Of a stretch of DNA of 64,000 bases, positions 9,626 to 51,476 are shown piece by piece. The position numbers and the translations under genes are program-made. The number at the start of each line of letters is the position of its first letter. The stretch's first letter is position 1. Source of the stretch: a virus. Lineage: Duplodnaviria; Heunggongvirae; Uroviricota; Caudoviricetes. The notes under the pieces were generated by a model. That model was not told the DNA's origin. It was given only the letters and a program-made list of their open reading frames with translations, and did no database searches. Where the stretch lies: the IMG/VR virus record IMGVR_UViG_3300047159_000064, one strand, 5' to 3'.

Positions 9626-9640
9626 ACGAAATCTCCCTGA

Positions 9641-10498
9641 TTACGCCTTCGACGCTGTCAGGCTGAGCCTGAGCGACTTGATGGTGGAATCGACGTACTT
9701 GTAGAGACGCTGGTTGTTGGCGTTTCTCACCGCTTGCACGGCGGCTCTGAGCTCGTCCGCCGAAATCTCGTATTTCTCGGCGAAATAGGCTTCGTAGTCG
9801 TCGGGGAGCTGGCTGAGGATCTGAACGACGCGGTACGGCCAGAACTGGGTGTACTCTTCCGAGCTCTTGACCTCGTTGCCGCTCTCGTCGACGCCTTTCT
9901 TCGTCTCTTTGGTGCGCTTCTCGCAGTCGTTGAAGGCGATGGTGTCCATGACGATGGCCTCGACGGGCTTCTTGGAATCGATGTACTTCTGGATGATGAG
10001 CTTCGCGCTGATCTTGTCCTTCTCGAGCTCGTCCGAGTCGTCGTGGACGGTGTCCAACAGCGTGCTGTCGCCGTCTTCCCCATCCAAAGGCTCGTCGAAG
10101 CTGACGGTCTGGAAATTCGCGCGGTGCTTGTCCAGGTTGGCCTGATAGTAGTGCTGGAGGCGGATGGTCTCGATGCACTGGTTGATGGCCTGCTGGGCGT
10201 TGCACTTCTTCGCCGGATTCTGCCACGCTCTGTACTTGCACGCGTAGTTGATGGCTTCGGCGAGCCACATGAAGAACTCTTCGTAATCGAGGTTGATGCC
10301 GGGGCTTTTGACGGCCATCTTGTCGATGGTGTACCAGAAGCGGAGGATCAAGGCCGAGAAGTAGGCCGACTTCATAGACTCGTCGCCTTCGTCCAATGCC
10401 TTGCAGTATCCGTTGGCCAGATCGTCGCAGCTAATGGACTGATAGTCTCCCAAAAGCTTGGCGTATCTGATGCAGTCCTGTCTTGCGTCTTGAATCAT
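9641..10498 (-). CDS. hypothetical protein (285 aa); candidate regulator (speculative)
   Basis: ORF track; the GAAATCTCCCTGATT palindromic motif overlaps its stop codon. Confidence 0.45.
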   Translation of the reverse strand: MIQDARQDCIRYAKLLGDYQSISCDDLANGYCKALDEGDESMKSAYFSALILRFWYTIDKMAVKSPGINLDYEEFFMWLAEAINYACKYRAWQNPAKKCNAQQAINQCIETIRLQHYYQANLDKHRANFQTVSFDEPLDGEDGDSTLLDTVHDDSDELEKDKISAKLIIQKYIDSKKPVEAIVMDTIAFNDCEKRTKETKKGVDESGNEVKSSEEYTQFWPYRVVQILSQLPDDYEAYFAEKYEISADELRAAVQAVRNANNQRLYKYVDSTIKSLRLSLTASKA

Positions 10499-17131: not shown

Positions 17132-17701
17132 CTAATCGGCGATCCACCGGATTTCCGGCGAGCCCTTGAAGCCTTTCTCCCAGACCATCCAGCAATAGGC
17201 GACGGCCGAGCCTTCGGTGAAGTCGTCCTTCGCCGAGCAGACCTGCCGCTTGACGAACACGTAGACGGCCTTCGGCGGATTGTCTTTCATCAGGCGGTCG
17301 TATCTGCCTTGGCCTTCCAGGAACTGAAGCCGGAGGAACGCGGCGACCTTCCTGCCGTCTCCGACGAGGCTGAGCGCCTTTGACACGAATTTCTCCGCGT
17401 CGCAGTACGGCGGGTTCATCACGATGTCGCCGCCGAACGGCTCGCCGCACTTCAGGAAGTCTATCATCTCGTCTCCGAAGCCGTAATCGAAGATGTCCGA
17501 CGCCTTGACGTCGTAGCCTTTGGCCTTGAGCTCGTTCACGATGTTGTGATGGCCGGCTCCCGGCTCCCAGACCTCATGGCTGAACGACTCTCTTTCCAGA
17601 AGGCTGCGGACGGCCGACGGGTCGGTGCCGTAGTAATCCAAGGCGGATCTCTCTTTGTCGCTCAGATTCGACGCCCCTAACGTGTTGTTGACGGTGTTCA
17701 T
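17132..17701 (-). CDS. DNA N6-adenine methyltransferase (NPPY motif IV, EPGAGHH motif I)
   Basis: DIVMNPPY and EPGAGHHNI motifs. Confidence 0.6.
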   Translation of the reverse strand: MNTVNNTLGASNLSDKERSALDYYGTDPSAVRSLLERESFSHEVWEPGAGHHNIVNELKAKGYDVKASDIFDYGFGDEMIDFLKCGEPFGGDIVMNPPYCDAEKFVSKALSLVGDGRKVAAFLRLQFLEGQGRYDRLMKDNPPKAVYVFVKRQVCSAKDDFTEGSAVAYCWMVWEKGFKGSPEIRWIAD

Positions 17702-17830: not shown

Positions 17831-18046
17831 CTACTCTTTGTCGAGCAGGTACCTGAACAGGCCCGGCTGGAACATCCAGACGGCCGGAAGCACGCAGAAC
17901 GCGGTCAGGCCTTCTATGACGACGTTCCAGACGCTGAGCCCCAGAAGCGGGATCATTATCGCGTTGGCTATCGTCGGGGCTAGCAGAATCGTCAGAGCGA
18001 TGAGCAGGTTGACGGAGAATTCGAGCAGTCTTTTAATTTTGTCCAT
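17831..18046 (-). CDS. small membrane protein with 2 TM helices (holin-like, speculative)
   Basis: Two hydrophobic helices in 71 aa. Confidence 0.45.
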   Translation of the reverse strand: MDKIKRLLEFSVNLLIALTILLAPTIANAIMIPLLGLSVWNVVIEGLTAFCVLPAVWMFQPGLFRYLLDKE

Positions 18047-18069
18047 ATGCGGGCTCCTTTAAGCCTCAT

Positions 18070-18125
18070 GAAAATATCATATCGCGGAAAAGCGGGTTCG
18101 TAAACGGCTTTCCGAAGAAAATCCG
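18070..18125 (-). promoter_or_regulatory. early promoter box copy 14
   Basis: cgtaaacggctttccgaag with an atatcatatcg -10. Confidence 0.55.
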
Positions 18126-18197
18126 CCGAGCGTCCGACGGGCCAGTCGGGCGGATCCGTCATCCGGCCGGACGGAAACGGCCTAGTCGAAAAGCTCA

Positions 18198-18241
18198 TGC
18201 GCATAAGTATTATAACAATAATACTTATGCGCATGAGGGAT
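18198..18241. repeat. 44-bp perfect palindrome CTCATGCGCATAAGTATTAT-AACA-ATAATACTTATGCGCATGAG
   Basis: Arms are exact reverse complements; shares the core AAGTATTAT with the palindrome at 22186. Confidence 0.6.
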
Positions 18242-18276
18242 CCCATTAGTCGAATCTGAATGCAATGGGATGGCCC

Positions 18277-18726
18277 CTAATCTGCCTCTCCGGAGGGGTA
18301 AGTCGCCGACAGCAGGGCCAGAGCCTCGGAGGCGACGTCGAAATCCCCCAGGCCGCAGCAGTCCAGCCAGACCTTCAGCGTCCTGCCCCAGCACACGAGC
18401 CTGCGATCCGAATGCCCGCCGTTCTGGAACCTCTCGACCCTGGCCCCAGGCCAATCCCTGAACCTGGCGACCGTGTCGAGCTCCGAGTCTATGACTTTCT
18501 CCATGTCGTCCTTGTATTGGGTGTTGCCCGAGCCGAACTCCAGCGTCCCGCCTTTCCACGCGGCGATCAGCTGGTCTCCCATGGGGTCCTCGAAGAAGTC
18601 GACTTCCTGTCCTCTGTAGCTGAGGTGATCGGCGGGCTTTTCCGAAATCCCCCTGATTGCCGAAGAGGCCGAAATCTCCCTGATTCCGCCCTGCCCGGAA
18701 ACCGAAATCTCCCTGATTTCGCCCAT
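18277..18726 (-). CDS. hypothetical protein; N-terminal 30 codons are encoded by three tandem copies of the palindromic GAAATCTCCCTGATT motif (true start may be the internal Met near 18582)
   Basis: ORF track; MGEIREISVSGQGGIREISASSAIRGISEK comes from the repeats. Confidence 0.4.
   Translation of the reverse strand: MGEIREISVSGQGGIREISASSAIRGISEKPADHLSYRGQEVDFFEDPMGDQLIAAWKGGTLEFGSGNTQYKDDMEKVIDSELDTVARFRDWPGARVERFQNGGHSDRRLVCWGRTLKVWLDCCGLGDFDVASEALALLSATYPSGEAD
18640..18725. repeat. three tandem copies of the palindromic motif CGAAATC-YCCCT-GATTYCG
   Basis: ccgaaatccccctgattgccg / gccgaaatctccctgattccg / accgaaatctccctgatttcg. Confidence 0.6.
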
Positions 18727-18730
18727 CCGC

Positions 18731-21131
18731 CTAAGCCTCCAGCACCATGCTCTTCAGCTGGTCCGAGAAACGCTCGTTAGGCACGTCGTCTATGACGTAA
18801 TCGCTGAGATCCTTCTTCTCGCCGACTATCTTCGCCACCCGCTCGTCTATCGTGCCGGCGCAAGAGAGCACCACGACGTTCGCCGGCCTCTGATTGGTGA
18901 CCCTCCATATGCGATCCGTGGCCTGAGAGAACTCCGAGTACGTGTAAGGGGTGTCCAAGGCTATCATGTAGCTGGCCGCGTTGAGCGTTATGCCGGTCGA
19001 GCATTTGCCGAACGTGCCGATGAACGCCTGCTCCTTCGGGTCGGTCTGGAACCTCTCGACGTCGGCGGAGAACACGTCGTCCGGCGTATCTCCAGTGTTT
19101 ATCGAGCCTTTGACCTTGCCTCTCAGCATGTCCGCCAGCTCGTATATCGATTCTTTGAACGTGCCGAAAACGACTACTTTCTCGCCCTGTGACGCGAGCT
19201 CCTCGACGAGCTCGGCGCAGCGCTCCAGCTTGGTGGCAGGTATCTGCTGGGAAGTCAGTATGCTCGGGCAGGACGTGGCCTGCCTGAGCCTGGTCGTGAG
19301 GGCCAGCAGGTTCGCCGGCTTCAGATCTATCTTGTCGGCCTCTTCGCGGACGCCGTCGGCGATCGCGTCGTAGAAGCGCCTGTGCTCGTCGTCCATGTCG
19401 AGCGATTCGTAGGTCACCGTCTTAGGCGGCAGAGAGTCCCTGACCTGGTCGAGCGTCCTCCTGAGGCTGCAGGAGTCGAGCTCCTCCTTCAGCAGATCGA
19501 GGTTCTTGTATCCGACTATCTGGCTGTCGTTGAATCCGCCGAATTCGCAGTATTGCGACTTGAACATCGTCAGCGTCGATCTGTCGTTCTCCGTCCACGA
19601 CAGCGGGACGTACATCGAAATCGGGCTGTTGGTCAGAAGGGTGCCGGTGGCTGCGACTTCGAACGGGGCCTTCAGCTTGAGCAGATTGGTGCCCTGGGTC
19701 GATGACTTAGTCGCGCAGTTATGGACTAAAATGCCGTTCGCATAGAAATTATGGTTGCCCTCGACCGCGAGATCGTAAACTGGCTCTGCTGCTATTACTT
19801 TTTTAGATACTAACTTTGCCATTTTTATGCCAGCTCCCGCCGCCGCTTAAGCCCAGATACCTATTTAATGCGCGAATTTGATTGTATGGGATAAGATAGA
19901 TAAGTTCCAGATGCCTATTAGGGCAATTGTTTTTGTATTTGAGATAATCTCGCTTATAATCTTCGATCTTTACGCCATGAGCCGATATAAAAGCTTCCCA
20001 GTGTAACTTTTTTCTTTCCTTGCCGGAAATCTTTGCGGCGTCTTTCATCCTTTGTCTGTACTCTGGCGTTTTTCACAGCTCTGCTGAGCGCTCTTGCATT
20101 GCGGCTATGCCTTTAGCAATCTTTATATCATCGTCCGCAGTTAAATCTTTTGCCTTTACCCAGCCGCGGTTGTTGGTGTATATCTTGTGCGACGCCGTGC
20201 ATTTTAGCTTTATTGTTCTGTTATCGTCGATCAAGGTCAGCTCCAGAAGCGGCTCTCTCGGCTGCGATTCCGTTACGGACGAAATCTGCCGAAATTCGTT
20301 TTGCCCTGTTTTCTTATTGTAGGAAAGCACCTTAGGCAGAGCTTTTAATTGGCTGATTTCGCCGATAGTAAATTTTCCGGCGTCGGTCAATACTACAGAA
20401 TCTCCGGTAAGGCATTTATGGATTTCGTCGACCGCTATCATGCCGAATTTCGTCTCTGACTTCAGGAAGGCCGCGGTCACCGCGGGGGACCTGAGCGTCT
20501 CGACGTTCGTGATCACGAAAAACTCGGCGATCTCGCCTTTGAGCTCTTTGGCCCTCTCAGGCAGAGACGCGTAATGCACCCTGCCCTTCTTGCTTATCCT
20601 CTCGCCTAAGATCCTGCAGCTCTCGTTCGAGAACCTGGAGATCTCTTTCTTCCAGTTCTGCTTGACCGCGTTGACCCCGCAGACTATGAAGCAGTGCTCT
20701 ATGGCCCCTCTGCGCTTGAGGGCTTCGGCCAGTCAGATTATTTCGGCAGTCTTGCCCAGGCCCATCGAGTCGAGCAGAAGCCACTTGGGGTGTTTTAGCC
20801 CGAAGTCGACCGCTTCTATCTGATGCCTGAACGGCGGCTGCTTGAGGCCGTCTATCTCTTCCTGGGACAGCGGGCGGAATCCCCCTGATTCCGACTCGCC
20901 TTCCGGCCAATCCAGGAGATTCAGCCTCACCTGATCGATGAAAACGGCCGAGTCCAGCAATTGGGCCAGGCAGCTCGCCGGTATCTCTCAGATCCGGTCT
21001 TTCTTGTGGTAGTATCAGTTCGGCAGGGCCTTCAGCGCGGCGACCAAGGCCTCGCTGTACTCCGACCTGACCACGAAGCTGGAAAGCCCGCTGACTTTGC
21101 CCGGCGGGCTGACTTCCGTAATCTCTATCAT
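18731..21131 (-). CDS. SNF2-family helicase containing an intein (with HNH-like endonuclease) after motif II; 4 in-frame TGA codons (about 21015, 20988, 20733, 20073) and a +1 frame break at an A5 run near 19822-19850
   Basis: GLGKT Walker A; DEIHK then CLTGDS intein N-terminus; VYDLAVEGNHNFYANGILVHN-C intein C-terminus; ATGTLLTNSP motif III; QATDRIWRVTNQ motif VI; ORFs 20733-20960, 20073-20579 and 19803-20048 share one frame, separated only by TGA. Confidence 0.65.
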
Positions 21132-21240
21132 GGCCTAAAGCCTCCTAAGAATCCTCGACGCTAAAAAGCGCCCAAAGGCGAAATCTCCCCGATTCCGGCT
21201 CCTTCGCGGCGCGCGAAAACGAAATCTCCCCGATTCCGCC

Positions 21241-21564
21241 TTAGTCTCCCAGTATGGAGGAATAAGGGGTCGTGAAATCGAGCTCTTCGTCCTCCGGCTT
21301 CGTCTTGACGGTCAGAGTCGCCTCTACGACGAACGGCTTCCCGCAGCTCTCGCACGTGAAGTGCTCGACCAGGGTCGGCTCGTCGCCTTCCTTGTATTCC
21401 TCGTAGATGATCTTGCCGAGGGCGTCCTTGATGACGGACGACGGCTTGCCCAGGATCTCCCCCGGCATGAACACCTCCGTCGGGTGGTACTCGCAGTGGC
21501 AGTAAGGGCAGACCACCGTGGCCTTCTTCTGCTGATCGGCTTTCTGGCCGTTTGATGCTGGCAT
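21241..21564 (-). CDS. zinc-ribbon protein (CPYCHC...CESCG)
   Basis: ORF track; two Cys pairs. Confidence 0.5.
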   Translation of the reverse strand: MPASNGQKADQQKKATVVCPYCHCEYHPTEVFMPGEILGKPSSVIKDALGKIIYEEYKEGDEPTLVEHFTCESCGKPFVVEATLTVKTKPEDEELDFTTPYSSILGD

Positions 21565-21720
21565 AGATAAAGTCTCCTTCGGGCCCGCGCTTGGGCGGGG
21601 CTATGGCGCAATCGCCTCTGATATACTATACGGCTTTCGCCTGCGCGGTATGGCCCGAAATTTGGCTGAATTCAGACATTCGCCTAGGCCGGAAAAACGA
21701 GATCTCCCCGATTTCGGCCT

Positions 21721-21835
21721 CGCATGCGCGCGCACGCATATATACGCGCGCCCGCGCGCGCCTCTTGTCTGGATCTATATGATCCAGCGCTATACGCGCG
21801 CACGCACGCGCGCGCCTCTTGTCTGGATCTATAGG
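21721..21835. repeat. two direct repeats of about 50 bp containing alternating CG tracts (cgcgcgcnCGCGCGCGCCTCTTGTCTGGATCTATA) plus the GGATCTATATGATCC palindrome
   Basis: Visible duplication; (CG)n stretches have Z-DNA potential. Confidence 0.55.
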
Positions 21836-21949
21836 ACTGGAGTATTATAATACAGACATACTAAAGATAGTTAATAATAAGTCATACGCTAAAGCGTATG
21901 ACGGGGGACAGGCCCCCGGGCCGCCTGCTTCAGCTCAGCCCTTTCCCTT

Positions 21950-22110
21950 CAGTTTTTAATAATTTAATAAATCATTAATTTAATAAATCATTAAGTCATT
22001 AAATTATTAGTTTAATAAATCATTAAATTATTAAGTCATTAAATTATTAATTTATTAAGTTAATAAATTATTAAGTCATTAAATTATTAAATCATTAAAA
22101 ACGCGAAAAC
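21950..22110. repeat. AT-rich tandem iteron array (units TTAATAAATCATTAA and ATTATTAAGTCATTAAATTATT)
   Basis: Nearly pure A/T tandem repeats inside a GC-rich genome; candidate origin or DNA-unwinding element. Confidence 0.6.
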
Positions 22111-28901: not shown

Positions 28902-30539
28902 TTAGTTATTCCTCTTGTAAGTCAAGTCCATGGATTTGTAGCGCGTGGTGTCTAAGAAGCCAAGCTTTTCCCAGTCCTGCTTTTTGCGATTGTAGAATTC
29001 GTGCGCTATGACGTTGTCCTCGTCGATCATGAGATAATGGTGTATCTTGGCGCCGTCGCTCCAAGATCCTTCATTGTCGCGCACCGAGTATTCAGGCGCA
29101 TCAGAGAACGTGTTGGCGAGCAATTTGCCTCCAGGCTTAAGCATGCTCTCAGCCACGGCTATTTCTTCGTTCGTAAGATAGTTTATGGAATCTTCTGCGA
29201 TGATGAGATCGAGCTTGCCGCTTAGTTTTTTAGCCGCGCTTATGCAAGTGTCGAAATCGCTTCCTTTGACGAATGGGTCTATGGAATACGTCGTTCTTTT
29301 TGGCGCTGTGTTTCCGCCTATTTCCGCAGACGTCAAATGAAAGCAGTTCGCCACCTCAGCAGCAGAGGCCAGCCTTTCGTTCTTTTTGCTGAAATACCGA
29401 GAAGGGAAATCTTCGTAGTATCTGCTCCAATCGACGCTTTTGAAATCATGGGCGGCGATATAGCCGTGGTACTTTTCCATCAGCGCGGTTTTGCCCGACG
29501 AAAAAGCGGACGATACCGTTTCTTCTTCCTCTTTGGTGCCTGGGAAAACGTATTCGGCAGTTTTTTCAGCTTTTATCTCTTCGTGTTTGTGAATGACGTA
29601 ATCGTGGCCGTTCAAGGCTGCGGCCAAAGCAGGCGCGTTCAACGTAGGTTTGCCGTCTGCTTTCACCGTCAGCGTGTTTTTGTCTACGCTCATCACCCAG
29701 ACAGGATCCCCGACGTGGCCTCTGCTCGTTGTCACGAAGCCTTCGCTCTCTTTCAGCTTTATGGCTATCGTGCCGTATTTCGCCGTTCTTCTTTCTTCGT
29801 ATTCGCTTACAACGCCTTTCGCGAAGCTGAGCTCGTTCTTTGCGGCTTGGCTCATGTCGGCAGGCGCATCAACGACGTCTGTCTTGTAGTATTCCTGATT
29901 TATGGCGCGGATCATGAATTTTATGTGATCATCGAAAGACATCGGAATAACGGAGCCATCTTGCGTGAGCGCTATCTTTTTTATTTTCGCGTCAATCGGC
30001 CTATTGGCGAAAATCACGTTGGCTTTGGAATCCTCTAACGTTTTTTCGGCGGCCGAGATCAGCTCTTCGTCTGTCGCTGCATCGAACAGCTTATAGCCTA
30101 TGAGGCAGCATCTTTTGTTCTTCTTTTTTATGACGTCTATCGCTCTAGGCGCGATGGTGAATTCTATGTTGAACTTCGCGCCTTCTTTGTACAAGTGAGA
30201 AGGAAATTTTGAATCGTAAGGATGAGTAGGAGCCAAATTAGCCACGGCTGCGGCCATAACGAAAGCATCATAATTCTCTGCGTTATTGCTGAACCATTTA
30301 AAGTAATCGTAAACATCAGATACGCTTACTGTACGTATGATGTCATTGCAAGCGCTCGGCAATTCTGTTCGCTCCCATTTGACGATGGTCACGTTCAGCC
30401 CGGCGGCGGCGAGGCGCCTTGCAGTTTCGAAAGCCAATCCGCCTTTGAATACGTTAGTAAGATATTTAACTGAATCAAGCTTCGCCGGGATAGGCCCGCA
30501 GCTCACTACGACGTTTTTAGCTAATTTGTTGATATACAT
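28902..30539 (-). CDS. two-domain enzyme: N-terminal CoaB/DFP-like nucleotide-binding domain fused to a C-terminal methyltransferase-like domain; possibly leaderless (ATG 7 nt after TATAATATA)
   Basis: VVVSCGPIPAKLDSVKYLTNVFKGGLAFETARRLAAAGLNVTIV matches the DFP/CoaB pattern; C-terminal LDLIIAED...GGKLLANTF. Confidence 0.4.
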   Translation of the reverse strand: MYINKLAKNVVVSCGPIPAKLDSVKYLTNVFKGGLAFETARRLAAAGLNVTIVKWERTELPSACNDIIRTVSVSDVYDYFKWFSNNAENYDAFVMAAAVANLAPTHPYDSKFPSHLYKEGAKFNIEFTIAPRAIDVIKKKNKRCCLIGYKLFDAATDEELISAAEKTLEDSKANVIFANRPIDAKIKKIALTQDGSVIPMSFDDHIKFMIRAINQEYYKTDVVDAPADMSQAAKNELSFAKGVVSEYEERRTAKYGTIAIKLKESEGFVTTSRGHVGDPVWVMSVDKNTLTVKADGKPTLNAPALAAALNGHDYVIHKHEEIKAEKTAEYVFPGTKEEEETVSSAFSSGKTALMEKYHGYIAAHDFKSVDWSRYYEDFPSRYFSKKNERLASAAEVANCFHLTSAEIGGNTAPKRTTYSIDPFVKGSDFDTCISAAKKLSGKLDLIIAEDSINYLTNEEIAVAESMLKPGGKLLANTFSDAPEYSVRDNEGSWSDGAKIHHYLMIDEDNVIAHEFYNRKKQDWEKLGFLDTTRYKSMDLTYKRNN

Positions 30540-30574
30540 ATTATATTATACGATTGAACGCGCCTATTGGAGGC

Positions 30575-31220: not shown

Positions 31221-32774
31221 TTACTTTTTCGACTTGTCGTCGACCGGCTTGACTTCAGTGGTCGTCGCGCCTTTAGGCGAATCGGCGGCCAGGCTTCCGC
31301 CTAAGAAACCTGAGATAACTGATTTGACGTCGATGCCCAACGCGTTATTGAGCCCTTCGAGAATCTGCGTGCCGTTGTTGGTCATCTCTCCGACGAGCTT
31401 CGAAGAATTGCCTTCTCCGTACATCGTGATGTTGCCTACCTTGGCCATGGCCTCTGCCATAGGCTTGCTGTAGGCCTCGACGACCTGCGGGATGATGCCG
31501 GAATCCAAGACGAGTTTCAAGGTAGCGGCTTCGCCGTATTGCTTCATGGCGTCCGCCTTCTTTTGGATGGCTTCGGCTTCGGCTTTGCCTTTGGCTTCGA
31601 TTCCAGTTGCTTCTGCCAACGCTGCCTGTTTGGCGGCTTCGGCCTTTGCGATTTGGGCGTTTGCTTCTGCTTTGGCCTGGATTTCCAAGGCGGCTGCGGT
31701 CTGCGCTTTAGCTTCTTTGTCGGCGATGGCTTGGATCTTTTGCATTTCTGCTTTTTGTTCAAGCTCGTACTTTTCGGCTTCGGCCGCTTTCTGGCGCTCG
31801 AATAACTCGGCTTGCGCTTTAGTTTCAGCGGCGTACCGGTCGGCGTCTGCCTTCTTTTTGATTTCGGCGGTAAGTTGGTTCTCGCGAACGGCGGCTTGCT
31901 GCTCAGACAACGCTACTTCGCGCTCTGTCTTGGCGATTTCCGCGTTGGTCGTCGCGACGGCGATTTCCTTGTTGCGGTTTTGCTTTTCGAGATCGTAGGC
32001 GGCGTCGGCTTCGGCTTTGGCCGTATCAGATTTGACTTTGAGCTCTGCGGTCTTCAAAGCGAGGTTGGTGTTCTGCTCGACGATTGTGGTCTGAGAGGTG
32101 ACATTCGCCTCATTGGCCTCTTTGTCCGCCTGAGCTTGGGCGATGGCGACATCGCGGTTGGCGTTTGCCTTCGCGATGGCGGCGTCTTTAGAAATCTGAG
32201 AGATGTTGTCGATGCCTAAGTTTTCGATAACGTGGTTGTCGTCGGTGAAGTTCTGGATGTTGAAATTGACGACTTCCATTCCGATTTTTTCCATGTCCGG
32301 AACGACGTTGGCGATGACTTTATCGGCGATTCCTTTTCGGTCTTGGACCATGTCGCGAATCGCGGATGAGCCGACGATTTCACGAATGTTGCCTTCGAGA
32401 ACCTGAATGACCTGATTGTTGATCTCTTCTTGGGATTTGCCTAACAACGATTCTGCTGCGCGCTCCAGCAATTCCGGCTTCGACGAAATCTTGATGTTCG
32501 CCACGGCGTCGACGTTGATGTTGATGAACTCTCGCGTCGGTACGCTGCTTCGCGTTTTGATGTCGACGCTGATCAACGACAGCGACAGCACGTTTTTCTT
32601 CTGGAAGAACGGCAGACGCATGCCTGCCTTGCCGATTAGGATTTTGCGCTTACCTAACCCTGTGATGATGATTGCTTCGTCTGTGCTGGCTTTAGTGTAG
32701 CCGCATGCGAAGTAGATTGCCGCGAGGACCAAGAGGGCGCCGACGACAATGCCTACGATTAGCCATGGATTCAT
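31221..32774 (-). CDS. SPFH/band-7 (flotillin-like) protein: N-terminal TM, SPFH domain, long Ala/Glu/Lys coiled coil
   Basis: Domain architecture visible in the translation. Confidence 0.55.
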   Translation of the reverse strand: MNPWLIVGIVVGALLVLAAIYFACGYTKASTDEAIIITGLGKRKILIGKAGMRLPFFQKKNVLSLSLISVDIKTRSSVPTREFININVDAVANIKISSKPELLERAAESLLGKSQEEINNQVIQVLEGNIREIVGSSAIRDMVQDRKGIADKVIANVVPDMEKIGMEVVNFNIQNFTDDNHVIENLGIDNISQISKDAAIAKANANRDVAIAQAQADKEANEANVTSQTTIVEQNTNLALKTAELKVKSDTAKAEADAAYDLEKQNRNKEIAVATTNAEIAKTEREVALSEQQAAVRENQLTAEIKKKADADRYAAETKAQAELFERQKAAEAEKYELEQKAEMQKIQAIADKEAKAQTAAALEIQAKAEANAQIAKAEAAKQAALAEATGIEAKGKAEAEAIQKKADAMKQYGEAATLKLVLDSGIIPQVVEAYSKPMAEAMAKVGNITMYGEGNSSKLVGEMTNNGTQILEGLNNALGIDVKSVISGFLGGSLAADSPKGATTTEVKPVDDKSKK

Positions 32775-32860
32775 TTTTTAAGTTCCTTTCTTGCTAAAAT
32801 AAATCTAAGATATTATACAGCCCTTATTTCGCAGAATCGCGCGATTTCTCGGCTTTTGCA

Positions 32861-33903: not shown

Positions 33904-35883
33904 TTAATCTATAAGCGATTTCTGGTCTTCTGCGTATTTGTACCATTGACGCGCCGTGAATTCCTTGAAGCGCTCTTTGCTGTAGCTCTGAGACGGCGTC
34001 AGGAAGCCTACGATACGCTGCCAGGTGTCGGCGACTGGCTCTCCGCAGATCGGGCAGACGTCGGTGCCTACGAAGCCATGGTTGTGCTTGCAGGAGTTTA
34101 TCTTCGTGTTGAACGCGAAGTAGATGACGCCGGCGTGCATTATCTTGTTCAGCATGCTCCATGCCACGTCGGTATTCGGGAAGTTGTTCTCGAGGTTGAT
34201 GTGGGCTATGGCGCCACCTCCGCATTTAGGATCGAGGATGGCGGACAGCTTTATCTTCTCGTCTATCGTGCATTTGGCCGTAAGCGGTATCCATTGGTTG
34301 GAATATATCGAGTCTTCGTGTCTATCGAACAAGAGATTGTCTTTAGCGCAAAGCACTACTGCTGCTTTCTCGGCCGGGACAGATTCGATGTTGAACGAAT
34401 AGTCGGCACCGAACGCGTCTTTAGTCTCGTTGATGACCCGCATGATGTCTTCGGCGAATGCGATGCCGTCGTCGGTGTAGCTGACGCAGCCGAATTCGTC
34501 GGTTTTTGTGTTGCCGAAGAATTTGATGACTTCGTATAAGCCGAGGATGCCGACGGTCGAATACTGCTTTTTGATGTCGATTCCGCCGTCGACGTAGTTG
34601 GGCAAAAGCCCCTTCTCTACGTTGCGCATGATGATGTGCCGCTGGATATCTAGCGTCTTGCAGCACAGATTGACTCTGGCCTTAAGCCTCTTCAGATAGT
34701 CTTTCTTGTCGCTCGATTCTAGCGCTATGCGCATCAGGTTTATCGTGTTGACTTTTATCGAGCCGATCGAAAGCGCGGTCCCGCCGATGCTGTTGACGAA
34801 AGCGTCGAGCTTCGACGTGTCGCTCAATAGGCGGCAGCAGTTGGAAAGCGTGTTGACGTTCTCGCTTCCGAAGAAGTTCGAATCGTTCCACTTGGTGTTG
34901 TGATCCGAGCACCATCTCGCGAAATCGTTGTCTTTGAACAGCTTGTAGTCGTGCGTGTGCTCCATCTCTTTCCATTCTTCGTCCGTCACGTCGTCTCTCT
35001 TGAGGAGCGAATACGTGAGCACCGGATAGGTGAACATGTTCTGCGCGCGGATGTCCGATACGACGTCCATGAACACCTTTTCGTGATTGATGAAGCCATC
35101 TATGTCGTCGACGACCATCGATCCGTCAGGGTAGACAACGCCGCCGAACAGCGATTCTACGTAATAGCGGTCGAATATGGAGACGTTGGTGAACGAGCTC
35201 TGCGTTATCCTCAAGAACGGCTGATTGAGCCTGTAGATGAGCTTTTGGAAGCATTGCTTGAGATAGTAGTCCGGATCTTTGATGTAGTATCCTTCGGCGA
35301 CGTCTTTCTTCCAGAAGTAATATGTCCAGATCAGGACGTTGGGGATTCCGACGGCTCCGGCGCTTCTGTTGCTGAAGAAGCTGATGTACTCGATAAGCAT
35401 GTCCAAGAAGCTGGACAGATGCTTCGGGCCTTGGTGGTTGTAGTTGTCTAAGAAGAAAAGGCCGTCTGTGGCGAGCCTGGTAAGGTCATAGGCGTAGCAA
35501 TACGGAAGATACGTCGAAGTGTGCGCGTCATGGAGATAGAACGCCCCAGACCATTCGTCTTCGAGCCATTCTTTGGCGGTCTTCAGGCCGTACTTTTTCT
35601 TCATCTCGTAGAAGATTTTGTTGAACGCGAAAATCTTGTCTTCAGACTTGTCTTTCTCTGACTTGAACGACACGATGTCTTTGGCTCTGGCGTTTGCCGA
35701 GCCGTCTATCGTGGCGTCAGCTGCCGTCTTGACGTTCTTATCGATGAAATTGTCGATGAACTCAGAATAGTCCAGCTGGCTTTCGGCCACGCCGTTAAGA
35801 ATCTCGAAGTCATGCCCGTATTTGTCTTTCAGGTTGTTGACCGTTCTCTCGAAGTCAGTGTCTAATTTTAAAGAAATTTCCAT
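33904..35883 (-). CDS. nrdD: anaerobic ribonucleoside-triphosphate reductase (class III)
   Basis: C-terminal glycyl-radical motif QRIVGFLTP and zinc ribbon CKHNHGF...CPICG; 659 aa. Confidence 0.7.
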   Translation of the reverse strand: MEISLKLDTDFERTVNNLKDKYGHDFEILNGVAESQLDYSEFIDNFIDKNVKTAADATIDGSANARAKDIVSFKSEKDKSEDKIFAFNKIFYEMKKKYGLKTAKEWLEDEWSGAFYLHDAHTSTYLPYCYAYDLTRLATDGLFFLDNYNHQGPKHLSSFLDMLIEYISFFSNRSAGAVGIPNVLIWTYYFWKKDVAEGYYIKDPDYYLKQCFQKLIYRLNQPFLRITQSSFTNVSIFDRYYVESLFGGVVYPDGSMVVDDIDGFINHEKVFMDVVSDIRAQNMFTYPVLTYSLLKRDDVTDEEWKEMEHTHDYKLFKDNDFARWCSDHNTKWNDSNFFGSENVNTLSNCCRLLSDTSKLDAFVNSIGGTALSIGSIKVNTINLMRIALESSDKKDYLKRLKARVNLCCKTLDIQRHIIMRNVEKGLLPNYVDGGIDIKKQYSTVGILGLYEVIKFFGNTKTDEFGCVSYTDDGIAFAEDIMRVINETKDAFGADYSFNIESVPAEKAAVVLCAKDNLLFDRHEDSIYSNQWIPLTAKCTIDEKIKLSAILDPKCGGGAIAHINLENNFPNTDVAWSMLNKIMHAGVIYFAFNTKINSCKHNHGFVGTDVCPICGEPVADTWQRIVGFLTPSQSYSKERFKEFTARQWYKYAEDQKSLID

Positions 35884-35909
35884 AATGCTGTTTTTGCCTT
35901 TGCCAATCC

Positions 35910-36125
35910 TTACATCGCCTGCTGCGAATTAACCCATTTCACGGCGGTCATGAAATCCATCATCTCGCCGTTCAGGCTGAGCTGCGGCGCGCTGGTTATG
36001 CCTAATTTTATCATCTCGTCTATGTTGTCTACCTCGGTGTAGCCGATGTTCTTCTGCTTCAGCTTCATTTCCAATACCCTGCATTTCGGGCAGTGGCTAG
36101 AATAGAATACGATTTTGTTTTCCAT
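35910..36125 (-). CDS. nrdH: glutaredoxin-like protein (NrdH-like, CPKC)
   Basis: 71 aa, CPKC redox motif, directly upstream of nrdD. Confidence 0.55.
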   Translation of the reverse strand: MENKIVFYSSHCPKCRVLEMKLKQKNIGYTEVDNIDEMIKLGITSAPQLSLNGEMMDFMTAVKWVNSQQAM

Positions 36126-36821: not shown

Positions 36822-39800
36822 TTATTTCTCTCCCAGCCTGGCTTTAAGCTCTTCGACTTCTTTTTTAAGCTTTTGTATTTCGTAGATCTCTAAGGCGTGA
36901 AGGTCGGTGTAGTTAAGCGCATAGACGCTCTTGCCGTCAATGAAGTTTTTCGACACTATGCCGAAATCAGTCGGGTTAAGTCCTGCCGCGCTCATCGCGC
37001 TTTCGACGTCTTGGGCAACGAAGCCGAATCTAGTCTTGGCTCTGTTGTTTTTGAATCTGAATGACGCAGGCTTAAGCCCGTCGAATAAAGCGTCATATCC
37101 AGATAAGGCGTATTCTATGCCTGTTTTCAGCCTTCTATCAGATGTGTTAGATACCGAATCGGCGGTAAGCTCATTGACCCTTATGGCAGCTTTTTTGCTG
37201 TCTGTGCCGAAGCGTATGCCGTTTATCAGCGCGCCGTCAAGCGAAATTGTTTTTTCTGTCGCTGATATAAGCTGATAGTCTTTTGTTATGCTTATGGTGT
37301 CGAAGCTAATGCTGGCTACTCCAATTACTGTGCCGTTCGACGGTGGAGTTATGTCGCAGTATAGGCTTGTCGGCGTATAAACGTAATTGTTTAATAGCGC
37401 GCTATACGGCATATAGAAGACTTTTGTTTGAGCTGATGTCGCGGTGCTGTATGATGTGCCGGCCGATGTTGTTCCTGCTGCATATTTGTATGCGTAGATT
37501 ATCGTCATTTTTACAGCTATGTTTCCTGAAGTGTTTATTGTTCCGAAACCGAAGTTATCAGCGCCGAGGGCATTGCCGTTGTAGCTGTAGTCATTTAATG
37601 AATTTTGGCGCGTCGTGCTGCTGTCTTTTACATTCTTTATGCTGCCTATTGTTACTCTGTTGTTTACGCACTCATAACCAGCGATTGTCGGCGTCGTTAC
37701 GTAGATTAGTGATATTACATTATTAGTGGTAGAGACATAAGCAGAAATAGGTAAATCGCAGATTGTTGTGCTTGTATCGCTATTGCCAGCGATATTGGCG
37801 CCGGTTATGTTGGCGCGATTTATGTCAAGGCCTGTCATGAATTCTCCGCCGTCTAATGCCAAAGTTGATCCGCTGGCGGTCAGTATACCGTCCAACATTG
37901 TCAGTTTTGGCAAGGCATTTGTGACTGCGTAATCTAAGACATTGTGCATTTTCAGTGTAACAGAATCACCAAAAGTAACCTCAGTTGTAGGATCTCCTAC
38001 TGCAGGCTTTTTAGGCGCGACGATAAATCCGTTTTTTCCGCCTATTACGAGCGTGCCTGGAAGATATAAATCATTATCTTTTGATATGGCACCTTCGCCG
38101 CCTTGTATTGAAAAAAGGTAGTCTCTTGTATTTATGCTGTCTCAACTGCTTACTTTAACGAATACTTCATTTTCGCAATCCCATCTGTAGTAGCATCCAT
38201 CTGTGCTGTTTAAATAGCAAGCAGTGACTTTTTCTGTTATGTCTGTTCCAGTGCTATTTTTAAAAGTTGTGCCGTTTTGCTCCGGTTTGCTGCCGAATAA
38301 ATCGGTGCCAAATCATTCTCAGTCTTGCGTTGTCCCGCTTGATTCTACATTCTTAGCGGCTTGAGTTATGGTATGTGATACCAAATACGGAGCTATGTTT
38401 ATATTTCCTGTCTCAGTAAGCTGCGTAGAATAAACTCTTTGCGTCACTAAAAACCATTGATTGTCGTTTTCTAACGGTACGTTTTCTGACGGCAGGCCAA
38501 ATGATTCTTTTTTGTCCTTTACGTCGCCGCTGCTGTCTGTTTCTTGTATTAGTCCTATTCTGACCGAGCCGTTTTTCACGTCTAAATTGTTGATGTTGGC
38601 GTTGTTCGCGTAAAGGTTTCCTAAATTGTTCACGCCGAAATTATCGCCAGCCGCGAATACTAGGTTAGAAACTTTATTGTCGTTTATGCTGAGGTACTTT
38701 GTTCCGGTGCCGGTCGACATCAAAACGGCGCCGTTTGTGCTGCTGTTTAGCGTTATGGCGCTGTTGTCAGCCTTAGGAAGCGTATAGCCGTTTTGAAGTA
38801 TATTGGCGCCTATTTCGAAGCCGCCTATTCATTTGTTATTTTTTTTATCGAAGCTGGCGCCTATTTGTCCGTGTTCTGCTATTATGTTTCCGGTGATGTT
38901 GGCGTTGTTCGCGTAAAGGTTTCCTAAATTGTTCACGCCGAAATTATTGCCTGCGGCGAATACCAGGTTAGAAACGTTGTTGTCGTTTATGCTGAGGTAC
39001 TTTGTTCCGGTGCCTGTCGACATCAAAACGGCGCCGTTTGTGCTGCTGTTTAGCGTTATGGCGCTGTTGTCAGCCTTAGGAAGCGTATAGCCGTTTTGAA
39101 GCACGCTATCGCCTATTTCGAAGCCGCCAGCACCTGAGGAGTCAGCGCCTATTTGTCCGGATTTTGCCACTATTTTGCCAAATACACTGAGCCCTTCGCT
39201 GTTGGCAACCAGTATGTCTTTCTGAATCTGATCCCCATTTTCATCCGCTATTTTTGCATAGACGGTTCATTCGCTGGCGTCAAGGTTCCATCCGAACCCT
39301 GTCACGTCATTTTTTTTGTTCAGTTTTGCGTCTACCGCTGCGTTTGTGCTTTCTATGCTTGTGGCGTTGGCATCAGCCTTTTTATCCACCGTAGTTACTT
39401 CACTGCGTATGCTTTTAGCCGTTTGCTCTATTAGGCTGGTTATATTTTTGTTTTGATTGTCCTGCGAGGTGATTACCTGCTTGAATCTGTTGCCGTAGTC
39501 TCTGTCCATCTGCCCGAGGTCTTTGTCGAGCGTGCTGACTTTTGCCGTAAGGCTTGACAGCGAAAAATAAGGCGCCGTCGTATTAGGCGTGTCTTTGTCT
39601 AGGCTGCTGCTCATTTTCGTGTCGAACGGTATGGTCGCCGATTTGCTGGTCGCCGACGTTTCGACGTTTATCGTTCCTCTTGGGTCAGCTTTTTCTAATT
39701 CTGCGCCTAGGTAGAGCTTTCCTATCACGACGGGCAGCTCCATTAGGTTGTTTTCGAAAGCTACCCAGACCACGTCGCCGACTTTGTAGCCGTTGTAGCT

Positions 39801-39929
39801 TCCAGGCGTATTGGATATGGTCGCTACGCCGTTTATCTCATCGTTTCCCGCGGATTCGAAGAACGGCATCCTGACGGAGCAGGTGTTGCCGCTTAAGTCT
39901 ATAGAAGTTATCTGGCCTTTTGTAATCAT
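36822..39929 (-). CDS. tail fibre protein (about 1035 aa) with tandem repeats of about 165 aa and a C-terminal S74 intramolecular chaperone domain; about 6 in-frame TGA codons (about 39267, 38829, 38319, 38313, 38142)
   Basis: ORFs 39267-39929, 38829-39170, 38319-38723 and 36822-37949 share one frame and are separated only by TGA; C-terminus SDRRLKTGIEY...GFVAQDVE...LKKEVEELKARL. Confidence 0.65.
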
Positions 39930-39954
39930 TTTCTGTTTAAACCTGCTCGATTTT

Positions 39955-39977
39955 CATATAATTTAGCAGATATTGCC
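39955..39977 (-). promoter_or_regulatory. late promoter motif copy 2 (minus strand ATATCTGCTAAATTATATG), 26 nt before the fibre ATG
   Basis: catataatttagcagatattgcc. Confidence 0.5.
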
Positions 39978-40053: not shown

Positions 40054-40731
40054 CTATGACAGCTCGCTTATCGCGGATTCTAGCTCGCTTTTGAGCTCGG
40101 CTATGAACTGCTCTTTGGTGAATATGCGCCCTGTCTCTTCTATTATGCCGGTTATTCCGCGGCACAGCGCGTATTTTCCCGTCAGCCTTTTGAAGATGTC
40201 CTTCTCAGGCGAGTATTCCAGCGTTATTACCAGGTCTTCTGACAAAACGCCGTTTTCTAAGGCATACTCGTTGCCCATGAACTTTTTGTTCTCGTACAGC
40301 ACGTCGTTGCCTATTTTTTTAAGCTTCGATCCGTCTGCGCCTAATTTCACGAGCGTTGAGCAGATCGTGTCCGCCGCCATCGTTCTGGCCTTTTGCAGAT
40401 CGTCCGGCGTTCATGAAGCATCGATTTTTATGTGGGCCGTGACTGGCACGGAGTTTTTATTGACCAGTATGTTATATCCTGTTTTGAAGCTGGCTTCGTG
40501 TTTTATGTAGGGAAGGTTGCAGCTGCGCAAGCCGTCTGGCTCCGTCTTTATCAGCGTGTCCGATTTGAGCGGCCGATTCCATCAGAACGGCTCTTGGACA
40601 TCGCCTATGGCTATGACGTTTTCGCCCAGGAACTTGCCTGTGTTCCTTCATTCGAATTGGTTCTTCAGGACGTCGGGTATGACGCCTTTAGAAGGCGCGA
40701 CTTTCTCGACCGTTACTTTTATGTTCTTCAT
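40054..40731 (-). CDS. hypothetical structural protein (about 225 aa) with 3 in-frame TGA codons, including a TGA-TGG pair
   Basis: Single frame from ATG 40731 to TAG 40054: ...KNQFE*RNTGKF...QEPF*WNRPL...IDAS*TPDDLQKARTMAADTICSTLVKLGADGSK... (ORF 40054-40380 is its C-terminus). Confidence 0.6.
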
Positions 40732-40732
40732 C

Positions 40733-41170
40733 CTAGGCCTTCTTTATTTTCTTAGGGTCGCCGAATATGCCTGATTTCTTCAGCCAGTCGTATTGGTCTT
40801 TCAGCGTGTCGGCCTTTCGCGCGAAGCTCCCGCGCTCGACAAGGCGCGGTATCGTGTCGCCTATGCTGCCTTCTACGCAAGCCTGCAGCAGCGGGTAGTC
40901 GCCGTTCGGGTTAAGGCTGGCGAAATTGTTGACGTAGCTCAGCTTTTCGTCAATCCACGGCTGCGCTTCTTTCATCGCGCCGTCTTGATCGTAGTGCATG
41001 CGCTCCTCGTCTCCGATTATCGCGCTTATTTTGCCGTCGTAGAGCTTCAGCACCTCGTCTTGCGTCAGCGCGTTTTTATTAGCCGTTCTGTCAGCTTTGC
41101 TCGCATAGATGTCGTAATTGCCGTTGAGGTCTATCTTTACGTAATTTCCGTTAGGTAGTAAAAGTGCCAT
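40733..41170 (-). CDS. hypothetical protein (start MALLLPNGN with SD AAGGAG)
   Basis: ORF track (start trimmed to ATG). Confidence 0.5.
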   Translation of the reverse strand: MALLLPNGNYVKIDLNGNYDIYASKADRTANKNALTQDEVLKLYDGKISAIIGDEERMHYDQDGAMKEAQPWIDEKLSYVNNFASLNPNGDYPLLQACVEGSIGDTIPRLVERGSFARKADTLKDQYDWLKKSGIFGDPKKIKKA

Positions 41171-51165: not shown

Positions 51166-51476
51166 TTTAGTAGGTAGTGACGGAGTCGTCTCCTGCTATT
51201 CTCGTCATGCTGAGCGTCGTTCTGTAGCCGCTCTCGTTTATGACGTCTTGCTGCTGCGTCACGAGGTAAAGTCCAGACGATATGTGCTTTCTTCCTCCTG
51301 GGAATATGACGTTGAGCCTGACGTAGTTCATCAGTATCGCCGGTCTCAGCAGAGCCTTGGACCGTTATCGTCGCCTTTATGGGGAATTTGGTGACTTTTG
51401 TCCACCAGGTGATGTCAGACGGCCTGGTGATGAAGTTGTCGTTCTTCGAGGTTATCGTAGGCGCCCAAACGTCCTC

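What the first reader, a model, noticed from the sequence alone, without database searches (positions are those of the whole stretch)
18731..21131. SNF2 helicase with an intein (HNH-like endonuclease) inserted after motif II, also carrying 4 in-frame TGA codons and a frame break
The extein reads GLGKT...VDEIHK | CLTGDSVVLTDAGKF...(HNH-like KNNCPNRHLELIYLIPYNQ)...VYDLAVEGNHNFYANGILVHN | CATKSSTQ...ATGTLLTNSP...QATDRIWRVTNQ. These are canonical intein block A (Cys1-Leu-x-x-Asp) and blocks F/G (VHN followed by Cys+1), placed exactly between helicase motifs II and III. Four TGA codons lie in frame (LPN*YYHK, DRI*EIP, AEII*LAEAL, SAEL*KTPE). The endonuclease-to-block-F junction needs a +1 shift inside an A5 run (cataaaaatggc). 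So the gene is either a recoded, intein-containing functional gene with a homopolymer sequencing error, or a decaying gene.
Basis: partly seen in the sequence, partly recalled or inferred. Interest (0 to 1): 0.8.

Follow-up and report, generated by a model that had tools for sequence, protein, structure and literature searches.

The report
Split intein in phage SNF2 helicase
A phage helicase gene is naturally cut into two genes that are rejoined at the protein level by a split intein. The "frame break" is the real boundary between those two genes, and the piece in the middle is the leftover tail of a GIY-YIG homing endonuclease, in a phage that reads TGA as tryptophan.

Summary

Two of its interpretations are wrong.

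1. The frame change is not a sequencing error and not decay. It is the boundary of a naturally split intein. One gene encodes the N-extein plus IntN. The other starts at its own ATG (19822) with a 35-aa IntC plus the C-extein. Three other assemblies of the same lineage and five more distant relatives whose C-half is held have the same two-gene layout. In the three relatives read at this junction the +1 offset falls at the same codon, two of them with no A-run.

2. The middle piece is not HNH. It is the C-terminal, all-helical module of a free-standing GIY-YIG homing endonuclease. That enzyme is intact (329 aa) in a 92-94% identical relative. Here it was cut down by a 714-nt in-frame deletion at a 7-nt microhomology.

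TGA encodes Trp: the second TGA aligns with W in 135/135 homologues and the third in 119/135. The exteins are under strong purifying selection (pN/pS 0.02-0.16).

This is the "fractured gene" arrangement of Dassa et al. 2009, in a new host gene, caught while the endonuclease decays, in a code-4 phage. It is a new member of a known kind.

The parts
20415..21131 (-). N-extein of the SNF2/HARP-like helicase (aa 1-239; motif I GLGKT, motif II VDEIHK). Start ATG 21129-21131, preceded by AGGAGG.
21015..21017 (-). In-frame TGA no. 1 (aa 39, LPN*YYHK). Homologues have Tyr (69) or Phe (56) here.
20988..20990 (-). In-frame TGA no. 2 (aa 48, DRI*EIP). Aligns with Trp in 135 of 135 homologues.
20733..20735 (-). 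In-frame TGA no. 3 (aa 133, GLGKTAEII*LAEAL). Aligns with Trp in 119 of 135 homologues.
20112..20414 (-). IntN, the N-terminal half of the split intein (aa 240-340: Cys1-LTGDS ... block B TASH ... NRGWVKAKDLTADDDIKIAK). GC 0.44 for the IntN-plus-remnant stretch, against 0.58 in the extein.
20112..20118 (-). TGCTAAA, the 7-nt microhomology at the junction of the 714-nt in-frame deletion that removed the IntN stop, the spacer and the first two-thirds of the endonuclease gene.
19803..20111 (-). Remnant of the free-standing GIY-YIG homing endonuclease gene (C-terminal all-helical module, no catalytic domain), now in frame with IntN. Stop TAA at 19803-05.
20073..20075 (-). In-frame TGA no. 4 (aa 353, SAEL*KTPE). 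This codon is CGA (Arg) in relative L013. Read as Trp it gives a 442-aa N-fragment. Read as stop it gives a 352-aa N-fragment with a 113-aa IntN.
19834..19838 (-). GGGAG, the likely Shine-Dalgarno for the IntC ORF. It lies within the GGG codons of the endonuclease's conserved GGGS motif, 11 nt before the ATG (GGTGGAGG in L014 and L016).
   Evidence: position read from the sequence
19718..19822 (-). IntC, the C-terminal half of the split intein (35 aa: MAKLVSKKVIAAEPVYDLAVEGNHNFYANGILVHN). ATG at 19820-22. It overlaps the remnant ORF by 20 nt in the +1 frame.
18731..19717 (-). C-extein (Cys+1 ATKSSTQ ... motif III onward, Helicase_C; 328 aa) and stop TAG at 18731-33.

Best explanation
The SNF2 helicase of this TGA=Trp (code 4) myovirus-like phage is a 'fractured gene'. 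Two adjacent, overlapping ORFs on one strand encode (i) N-extein + IntN and (ii) IntC + C-extein.

The two polypeptides are expected to associate through the intein halves and trans-splice. That would give a 567-aa helicase with the junction ...VDEIHK-CATKSS... (inferred, not shown).

The DNA between the halves originally held a free-standing GIY-YIG homing endonuclease gene, which mobilises the cassette. The 3' end of that gene supplies the ribosome-binding site and start codon of the IntC ORF.

In this lineage a 714-nt in-frame deletion between two TGCTAAA repeats removed the IntN stop codon, the spacer and the nuclease catalytic domain. Only the C-terminal helical module is left, fused to IntN. 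The element is therefore immobile and decaying, while splicing is retained.
For: Shown:
- Intein profile hits above cut-off. The closest solved structure is the NrdJ-1 split intein, E=1.6e-19.
- Cys1, TxxH, the block F Asp and His, and HN|Cys+1 are all intact.
- Relatives exist as separate proteins. N-fragments of ~335-343 aa end just after ...DDIKIxS. C-fragments of 362-364 aa start Met-IntC.
- Layout in relatives L014, L015, L016, L020, L021 and L022: SNF2-N+IntN, then a 319-384 aa GIY-YIG/NUMOD3 ORF, then an overlapping IntC+SNF2-C. Read in L014-L016, the N-fragment ends at TAA and a spacer with AAGGAG precedes the endonuclease ORF. L023/L024 show the first two genes before the contig ends.
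- L013 (92-94% nt identity) keeps a 329-aa GIY-YIG ORF whose last ~100 aa are 84% identical to the window's middle piece.
- L017, L018 and L019 (94.6-98.6% identity, three other assemblies) share the four TGAs and the deletion. L018 and L019 also cover the +1 junction and show the same offset.
- The IntC start lies at the same codon position in the window, L013, L014 and L016, and the last two have no A-run.
- The 20-nt overlap falls within the 6-69 bp range that Dassa et al. report for such loci (PMC2677866).
- Exteins have pN/pS 0.02-0.16, IntN 0.06-0.34, IntC 0.08-0.28. This includes comparisons within the deletion lineage.
- The spliced extein is colinear with more than 2000 uninterrupted homologues.
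- TGA aligns with Trp. The TGA in the L013 endonuclease sits at the conserved EKYW.
Against: - Trans-splicing has not been demonstrated.
- If TGA 353 is read as Trp, IntN carries a ~100-aa C-terminal extension. Its effect on association and splicing is unknown.
- No suppressor tRNA lies in the window, so the decoding mechanism is not seen.
- pN/pS for the remnant rests on very few substitutions.
- The sequence just after the deletion junction (about 30 nt) is much more diverged from L013 than the flanks. The deletion therefore did not arise from an L013-identical ancestor.
Confidence: 0.85

Rival explanations
1. A contiguous, cis-splicing intein with an internal endonuclease domain. The +1 break would be a homopolymer (A5) sequencing or assembly error.
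For: An A5 run does sit at the frame change. Elsewhere in the window another gene seems to change frame, so indel errors in this assembly cannot be ruled out in general.
Against: The same offset and overlap occur in L013, L018 and L019, which come from separate assemblies. They also occur in L014 and L016, where the homologous codons are TAT GGC and GGT GGC with no A-run. The IntC ORF has its own ATG or GTG and an upstream GGAGG-type site. Database relatives are separate N- and C-fragments. No contiguous version appeared among the 29 hits.
Confidence: 0.03
2. A decaying pseudogene, in which the stops and the frameshift mark loss of function.
For: There are four in-frame stops under the standard code and a truncated endonuclease.
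Against: All four stops are TGA, and all are conserved in relatives that differ at 1.4-5.4% of bases. Two of them align with near-invariant Trp. Extein pN/pS is 0.02-0.16. All splicing residues are intact. Other genes in the window also carry internal TGAs, and all 56 strong ORFs (delimited by TAA and TAG only) run long, 36 of them with no in-frame TGA at all.
Confidence: 0.04
3. The same split intein, but TGA 353 acts wholly or partly as the stop of the N-fragment. The product would be a compact 352-aa protein with a 113-aa IntN, and the remnant (81-aa ORF from ATG 20048) would be untranslated or made separately.
For: The codon is CGA in L013 and TGA in all four deletion-lineage sequences. 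It lies 12 codons after the end of IntN, about where relatives place their TAA. Suppression of a recoded stop need not be complete, and phage recoding is thought to be stage-dependent (bioRxiv 10.1101/2021.08.26.457843).
Against: Three TGAs upstream in the same ORF must be read through to make any N-extein. A ribosome that reaches codon 353 is therefore already in a TGA-decoding cell. No context feature sets this TGA apart (read from the sequence).
Confidence: 0.15
4. A programmed +1 ribosomal frameshift joins the remnant ORF to IntC, producing a single cis-splicing precursor.
For: The two ORFs overlap by 20 nt with a +1 offset, close to an A-rich stretch.
Against: The overlap sequence is not conserved as a slippery site in L014 or L016. 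A conserved start codon and ribosome-binding site for IntC are present. In relatives with the intact endonuclease, IntN ends at TAA well upstream, so no frameshift could restore a contiguous intein.
Confidence: 0.02

Closest known systems
'Fractured genes' of Dassa, London, Stoddard, Schueler-Furman & Pietrokovski 2009 (PMC2677866): split inteins with a free-standing GIY-YIG or Vsr-like endonuclease gene between the halves. This set is the source of the gp41-1, NrdJ-1 and IMPDH-1 split inteins.
   Same: - The two extein halves lie adjacent on one strand.
- The intein is split at the canonical endonuclease insertion site.
- Relatives carry a GIY-YIG/NUMOD endonuclease ORF between the halves.
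- The endonuclease 3' end overlaps the IntC start (20 nt here, 6-69 bp in the paper).
- The context is phage DNA-metabolism genes.
- The nearest solved structure is NrdJ-1.
   Different: - The host protein is an SNF2/HARP-like helicase. It is not among the hosts the paper lists (gp41, IMPDH, DnaE, NrdA, NrdJ, ligase, terminase).
- In the window the endonuclease has lost its catalytic domain, and its tail is fused in frame to IntN.
- The genome reads TGA as Trp.
Cyanobacterial DnaE split intein (Ssp/Npu DnaE)
   Same: It is a class 1 split intein with an IntC of 35-36 aa and an IntN of about 100-120 aa. The IntC segment even matches positions 1-37 of the NCBIfam DnaE C-half model.
   Different: The DnaE halves lie at distant loci with no endonuclease between them. 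Here the halves overlap within a single locus, and a nuclease remnant survives.
Contiguous SNF2/HepA inteins of bacteria (Novikova et al. 2016, PMC4760082, list 15 in COG0553)
   Same: The host family is the same, and the insertion lies in the ATPase core.
   Different: As far as I know those inteins are contiguous mini-inteins or carry an in-frame endonuclease domain. I did not compare their insertion sites with this one.
Code-4 (TGA to Trp) recoded phages (Borges et al., bioRxiv 10.1101/2021.08.26.457843)
   Same: In-frame TGA aligns with Trp, only a fraction of genes use it, and structural genes are among them.
   Different: Here a replication-type gene (SNF2) carries three essential TGAs. 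No suppressor tRNA, RF1 or TrpRS is seen in these 64 kb.

Membership tests
Intein (HINT fold, class 1 splicing) | Profile match to the intein N- and C-terminal splicing regions | tested here: met
   PF14890 62.8 bits (cut-off 35.8), TIGR01443 44.2 (15.6), TIGR01445 27.8 (24.5) on the joined halves. NrdJ-1 intein E=1.6e-19.
Intein (HINT fold, class 1 splicing) | Catalytic residues: Cys/Ser1, block B TxxH, block F Asp/His, terminal His-Asn, and Cys/Ser/Thr at +1 | tested here: met
   C240, T-A-S-H, VYDLAVEGNHNF, VHN|C.
Intein (HINT fold, class 1 splicing) | Protein splicing actually occurs | not testable with these tools
   Supported only indirectly, by purifying selection on the exteins and the intein halves.
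Naturally split intein / fractured gene (Dassa 2009) | IntN and IntC are encoded by separate ORFs, each with its own stop or start, and the arrangement is conserved in relatives | tested here: met
   Window, L013, L018, L019, L014-16, L020-22. Separate N- and C-fragment proteins in the database.
Naturally split intein / fractured gene (Dassa 2009) | An intact free-standing homing endonuclease gene lies between the halves | tested here: not met
   In the window only the C-terminal ~100 aa remain, fused to IntN. The gene is intact in L013, L014-16, L020 and L021. The window is therefore a degenerate derivative of the arrangement.
Naturally split intein / fractured gene (Dassa 2009) | The endonuclease 3' end overlaps the IntC start | tested here: met
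   20 nt in the window and L013, 35 nt in L014, 32 nt in L016. The published range is 6-69 bp.
GIY-YIG homing endonuclease | GIY-YIG catalytic domain | tested here: not met
   Absent from the window. Present in L013 (33.7 bits), L016 (39.9) and L021 (41.3), and in 5 of the 6 full-length holders of the same C-terminal module.
   No Pfam, NCBIfam or PHROG hit. The AlphaFold model (pLDDT 90) has four helices and no strands. No significant PDB fold match, best E=1.5.
SNF2 family helicase | SNF2-related ATPase domain plus Helicase_C, colinear with uninterrupted homologues | tested here: met
   PF00176 72.6 bits over residues 103-389 and PF00271 39 bits on the spliced sequence. More than 2000 homologues at 99-100% coverage.
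SMARCAL1-like annealing helicase (HARP + SNF2) | HARP domain above threshold | tested here: inconclusive
   PF07443 scores 19.2-19.8 bits against a cut-off of 25. Some homologues carry a precomputed HARP hit.
Code-4 recoded phage | In-frame TGA aligns with Trp in conserved proteins | tested here: met
   W in 135/135 and 119/135 homologues at two sites. The TGA in the L013 endonuclease sits at the conserved EKYW.
Code-4 recoded phage | Decoding machinery (tRNA-Sup UCA, RF1, TrpRS) | tested here: inconclusive
   No tRNA in the 64-kb window. The rest of the genome is not available.

The most novel reading that the evidence does not exclude
The nuclease-less DNA-binding tail now fused to IntN may not be mere debris. 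It could be retained for a purpose, for example to bind the former homing site and shield it from related endonucleases, or to bring the N-fragment to DNA.

TGA 353 could act as a code-dependent valve that sets the ratio of the compact (352-aa) to the extended (442-aa) N-fragment. Helicase maturation would then be tied to the phage's switch to TGA=Trp decoding.
Probability: 0.08. Interest if true: 0.65.

Novelty: new member of a known kind. Interest (0 to 1): 0.45.

Why it matters
1. Annotation. Under the standard code, and without recognising the split, this essential-looking helicase is called as several unrelated fragments. The public protein sets contain exactly such fragments (P0001-P0004).

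2. Evolution. The locus and its near relatives show successive stages of one element: an intact GIY-YIG gene between the intein halves (L013), a 714-nt microhomology deletion (the window and three other assemblies), and a further deletion (P0011). This traces a path from a mobile fractured gene towards a split intein with no endonuclease.

3. Practical use. The fast trans-splicing inteins used in protein engineering (gp41-1, NrdJ-1, IMPDH-1) come from this class of locus. The SNF2 family found here offers more than a dozen diverged Cys1/Cys+1 IntN and IntC sequences related to NrdJ-1 that could be tested.

4. Recoding. It is an example of a replication-type gene that depends on TGA=Trp decoding.

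Tried and rejected
- Megablast of 18000-22000 against deposited phages: no match.
- tblastn of the spliced helicase against deposited phages: at most 40% identity (Dp-1, Flasso, phiCTP1). IntN against the same set: at most 42%, and in other host genes. No cultured relative carries this element.
- IMG/VR scan with the C-fragment: only short IntC matches in unrelated loci. Not pursued.
- Pfam, NCBIfam and PHROGs on the middle piece: nothing.
- Foldseek of its model against the PDB: no significant hit. The weak list is dominated by helix-turn-helix proteins, and I treat that as inconclusive.
- ARAGORN: no tRNA in the window.
- Simple ORF-coverage statistics could not separate the genetic codes, because GC-rich off-frames stay open. 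I replaced this with a GC3-guided ORF set and with homologue alignment.
- TGA=Gly (code 25) was considered and rejected. Only 1 of 135 homologues has Gly at one TGA site, and none at the other two.
Full report
**1. What is in the sequence**

The feature lies on the minus strand. From ATG 21129-21131, preceded by AGGAGG, one frame reads MIEITEV...GLGKTAEII*LAEAL...VDEIHK|CLTGDSVV... and stays open to TAA 19803-05. It contains exactly four in-frame stops, all TGA:
- aa 39, at 21015-17
- aa 48, at 20988-90
- aa 133, at 20733-35
- aa 353, at 20073-75

The +1 frame opens after a TAA and has a single possible start, ATG 19820-22. It reads MAKLVSKKVIAAEPVYDLAVEGNHNFYANGILVHN|CATKSS... to TAG 18731-33, giving 363 aa. 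The two ORFs overlap by 20 nt.

Intein DNA is markedly AT-richer than the exteins: GC 0.42-0.44 against 0.58-0.59.

**2. It is an intein in an SNF2 helicase**

- On the joined halves, Pfam Intein_splicing scores 62.8 bits (cut-off 35.8). TIGR01443 and TIGR01445 are also above their cut-offs.
- The best solved relative is the NrdJ-1 split intein (8ubs, E=1.6e-19).
- Cys1, block B T-A-S-H, block F and VHN|Cys+1 are all intact.
- With the intein removed, SNF2-rel_dom aligns without a break over residues 103-389 (72.6 bits, against 34.6 and 26.8 for the halves). Helicase_C follows.
- More than 2000 uninterrupted homologues of 567-576 aa match the 567-aa spliced sequence at 59-64% identity and 99-100% coverage. 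At the junction they read DEAH(R/K)-(A/L/F/C/I)-(A/S)(T/N)K(S/T)S.

**3. TGA is a sense codon (Trp)**

- In an alignment of 135 homologues, TGA no. 2 falls on Trp in 135/135 and TGA no. 3 on Trp in 119/135. TGA no. 1 falls on Tyr or Phe. Gly (code 25) is not supported.
- The window is a myovirus-like phage. It encodes a tail sheath, a gp15-like protein, a tail fibre with an S74 chaperone domain, and NrdD.
- With ORFs delimited by TAA and TAG only and chosen by GC3 signal, 36 of the 56 strong ORFs contain no in-frame TGA at all. Some of these run to 855 aa.
- Several other genes, including structural ones, carry internal TGAs. Examples are 36822-39962, 40054-40743 and 62590-63999.
- The four TGAs are conserved in three other assemblies that differ at 1.4-5.4% of bases.
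- TGA-to-Trp recoding in gut phages is established (bioRxiv 10.1101/2021.08.26.457843).
- No tRNA lies in these 64 kb.

**4. The frame break is a gene boundary: the intein is naturally split**

A search with the joined intein returned no contiguous relative. It returned two classes of separate protein:
- (a) N-fragments, full-length ones 334-350 aa plus some shorter calls, made of SNF2-N plus IntN. The ones I read end just after ...KAKDLTxxDDIKIxS.
- (b) Proteins of 362-364 aa that begin Met-IntC and continue into SNF2-C. This is the same length as the window's C ORF.

Their contigs show the layout directly:
- In L014-L016, L020 and L021/L022, N-extein+IntN is followed by a free-standing GIY-YIG/NUMOD3 ORF of 319-384 aa, and then by IntC+C-extein overlapping the end of that ORF.
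- Read in L014-L016, the N-fragment ends at TAA, and a 31-34 nt spacer with AAGGAG precedes the endonuclease ORF.
- L023/L024 show the first two genes before the contig ends.

The IntC start (ATG or GTG) sits at the second position of the same endonuclease codon in four loci. The codons are AAT-GGC in the window and L013, TAT-GGC in L014, and GGT-GGC in L016. The +1 offset is therefore conserved where no A-run exists.

The upstream conserved GGGS motif of the endonuclease encodes a GGAGG- or GGGAG-type ribosome-binding site.

This is the 'fractured gene' arrangement of Dassa et al. 2009. That paper reports the GIY-YIG option and a 6-69 bp overlap between endonuclease and IntC. It also proposes that the endonuclease 3' end supplies the downstream start.

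Sequencing error and programmed frameshifting are therefore rejected.

**5. The middle piece is the tail of a GIY-YIG enzyme, not HNH**

- L013 (92-94% nt identity) keeps a 329-aa ORF between the halves. It has a GIY-YIG domain (33.7 bits) and one TGA at the conserved EKY-W.
- Its last ~100 aa are 84% identical to the window's segment AKGIAAMQERSAEL*KTPEY...NGKVSI.
- An exhaustive scan of 1.84 billion representatives found only ten holders of this module. It is always at the extreme C-terminus. Five of the six full-length holders carry GIY-YIG, and one (P0157) has an HNH-type N-terminus instead.
- The module itself has no family hit.
- Its model is four helices with no strand (pLDDT 90), and it has no significant fold match. 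A DNA-binding role is inferred from the bipartite architecture of GIY-YIG enzymes. It is not shown.

**6. How the window's version arose**

- Compared with L013, the window lacks L013 positions 416-1158 and has 29 diverged nt in their place. The net loss is 714 nt, which is in frame.
- Both breakpoints carry TGCTAAA (...ATT GCT AAA at the end of IntN...TAT GCT AAA inside the endonuclease). This fits a microhomology-mediated deletion.
- The deletion removed the IntN stop, the spacer, and the catalytic and middle parts of the nuclease.
- L017-L019 share it, so it is a population variant and not an assembly artefact.
- P0011 shows a second, independent deletion further inside the remnant.
- The retained 3' end contains the IntC ribosome-binding site and start, which explains why it persists.

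**7. Is the gene alive?**

pN/pS values:

| Segment | pN/pS |
|---|---|
| N-extein | 0.08-0.16 |
| C-extein | 0.02 |
| IntN | 0.06-0.34 |
| IntC | 0.08-0.28 |
| Remnant | 0-0.76 (only 2-16 substitutions per comparison) |

These values include comparisons among sequences that share the deletion. The helicase and both intein halves are under constraint. The remnant is less constrained, or the data are too few to tell.

**8. Open point**

TGA 353 is CGA (Arg) in L013 and TGA in all deletion-lineage sequences.
- Read as Trp, the N-fragment is 442 aa, with a ~100-aa tail on IntN.
- Read as stop, it is 352 aa with a 113-aa IntN, close to the relatives.

Three TGAs upstream must be decoded before the ribosome reaches this codon. 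I therefore favour read-through, and give the stop or mixed outcome about 0.15.

**9. Comparison and novelty**

- Kind: fractured gene with a split intein and a GIY-YIG endonuclease. This is known (PMC2677866).
- SNF2/HepA is a known host of inteins in bacteria (PMC4760082).
- It is not among the hosts the fractured-gene paper lists.
- My full-text search for split intein, SNF2 and phage gave no title or abstract describing such a case. I read only two of the papers it returned, and neither describes one.
- No deposited phage carries it.
- What is new: the host gene, the observed endonuclease-deletion intermediate with an IntN-tail fusion, and the code-4 setting.

Verdict: a new member of a known kind, of moderate interest.

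Noticed in passing
window 9628-9642, 18644-18718 (3 copies), 21180-21235 (2 copies), 21699-21713: A 15-nt motif, GAAATCTCCCYGATT, occurs 7 times, always on the + strand (0.04 expected by chance). Its arms GAAATC/GATTTC form an imperfect palindrome around TCCCY. The copies cluster in the spacers just upstream and downstream of the SNF2 gene pair. This looks like a regulator-binding or promoter-type site. The called ORF 18277-18726 starts inside the repeats, so its true start is more likely the ATG at 18583-18585.
   Followed up: partly
window 51167-52469 (-), around 51340-51365: A baseplate-like gene reads through a TGA (aa 333). Its coding signal then appears to jump to another frame (ORF 51167-51331, ...MNYVRLNVIFPGGRKH...). 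There is no homopolymer or obvious slippery site. This could be an indel, a frameshift or two overlapping genes.
   Followed up: partly
window 36822-39962 (-): A 1046-aa tail-fibre-like ORF has five internal TGAs and an internal duplication of about 150 aa (GGFEIG...NLYANNANI). Its GC is clearly lower (0.43-0.45) than that of its neighbours.
   Followed up: no
window 1-24000 versus 24001-64000: There is a step in base composition: 0.54-0.58 GC across most of the replication/early-type half (lower, 0.48-0.53, in the first 6 kb) against 0.49-0.51 in most of the structural half.
   Followed up: no
P0157 (representative library) versus P0151, P0153, P0155, P0156, P0158: The same rare C-terminal helical module (CPN(R/K)HLEL...LGLxGGGS) is attached to an HNH-type N-terminal nuclease in one protein and to GIY-YIG in the others. 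This is domain shuffling between homing-endonuclease classes. Only ten cluster representatives in 1.84 billion carry the module.
   Followed up: partly
P0011 (180 aa, no contig held): A close relative carries a second, independent deletion inside the endonuclease remnant. It fuses MKDAAKISG...FISA directly to the IntC reading frame (AGAGIKMAKLVSKK...). This shows continuing erosion of the intervening DNA.
   Followed up: partly
window 28905-30545, 31224-32777, 33907-35928, 17132-17701 (all -): Auxiliary genes that are unusual for a phage: a DFP/CoaBC-like flavoprotein domain, an SPFH/flotillin-like protein, anaerobic ribonucleotide reductase NrdD, and a DNA methyltransferase right next to the helicase.
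   Followed up: no
L014, L015, L016, L020, L021: The relatives that carry the intact SNF2 fractured gene are very AT-rich phages (0.31-0.33 GC in L014-L016) and appear to use the standard code, with TGG at the sites that are TGA in the window. Uninterrupted homologues sit on contigs of 215-228 kb, which suggests a jumbo-phage group.
   Followed up: no
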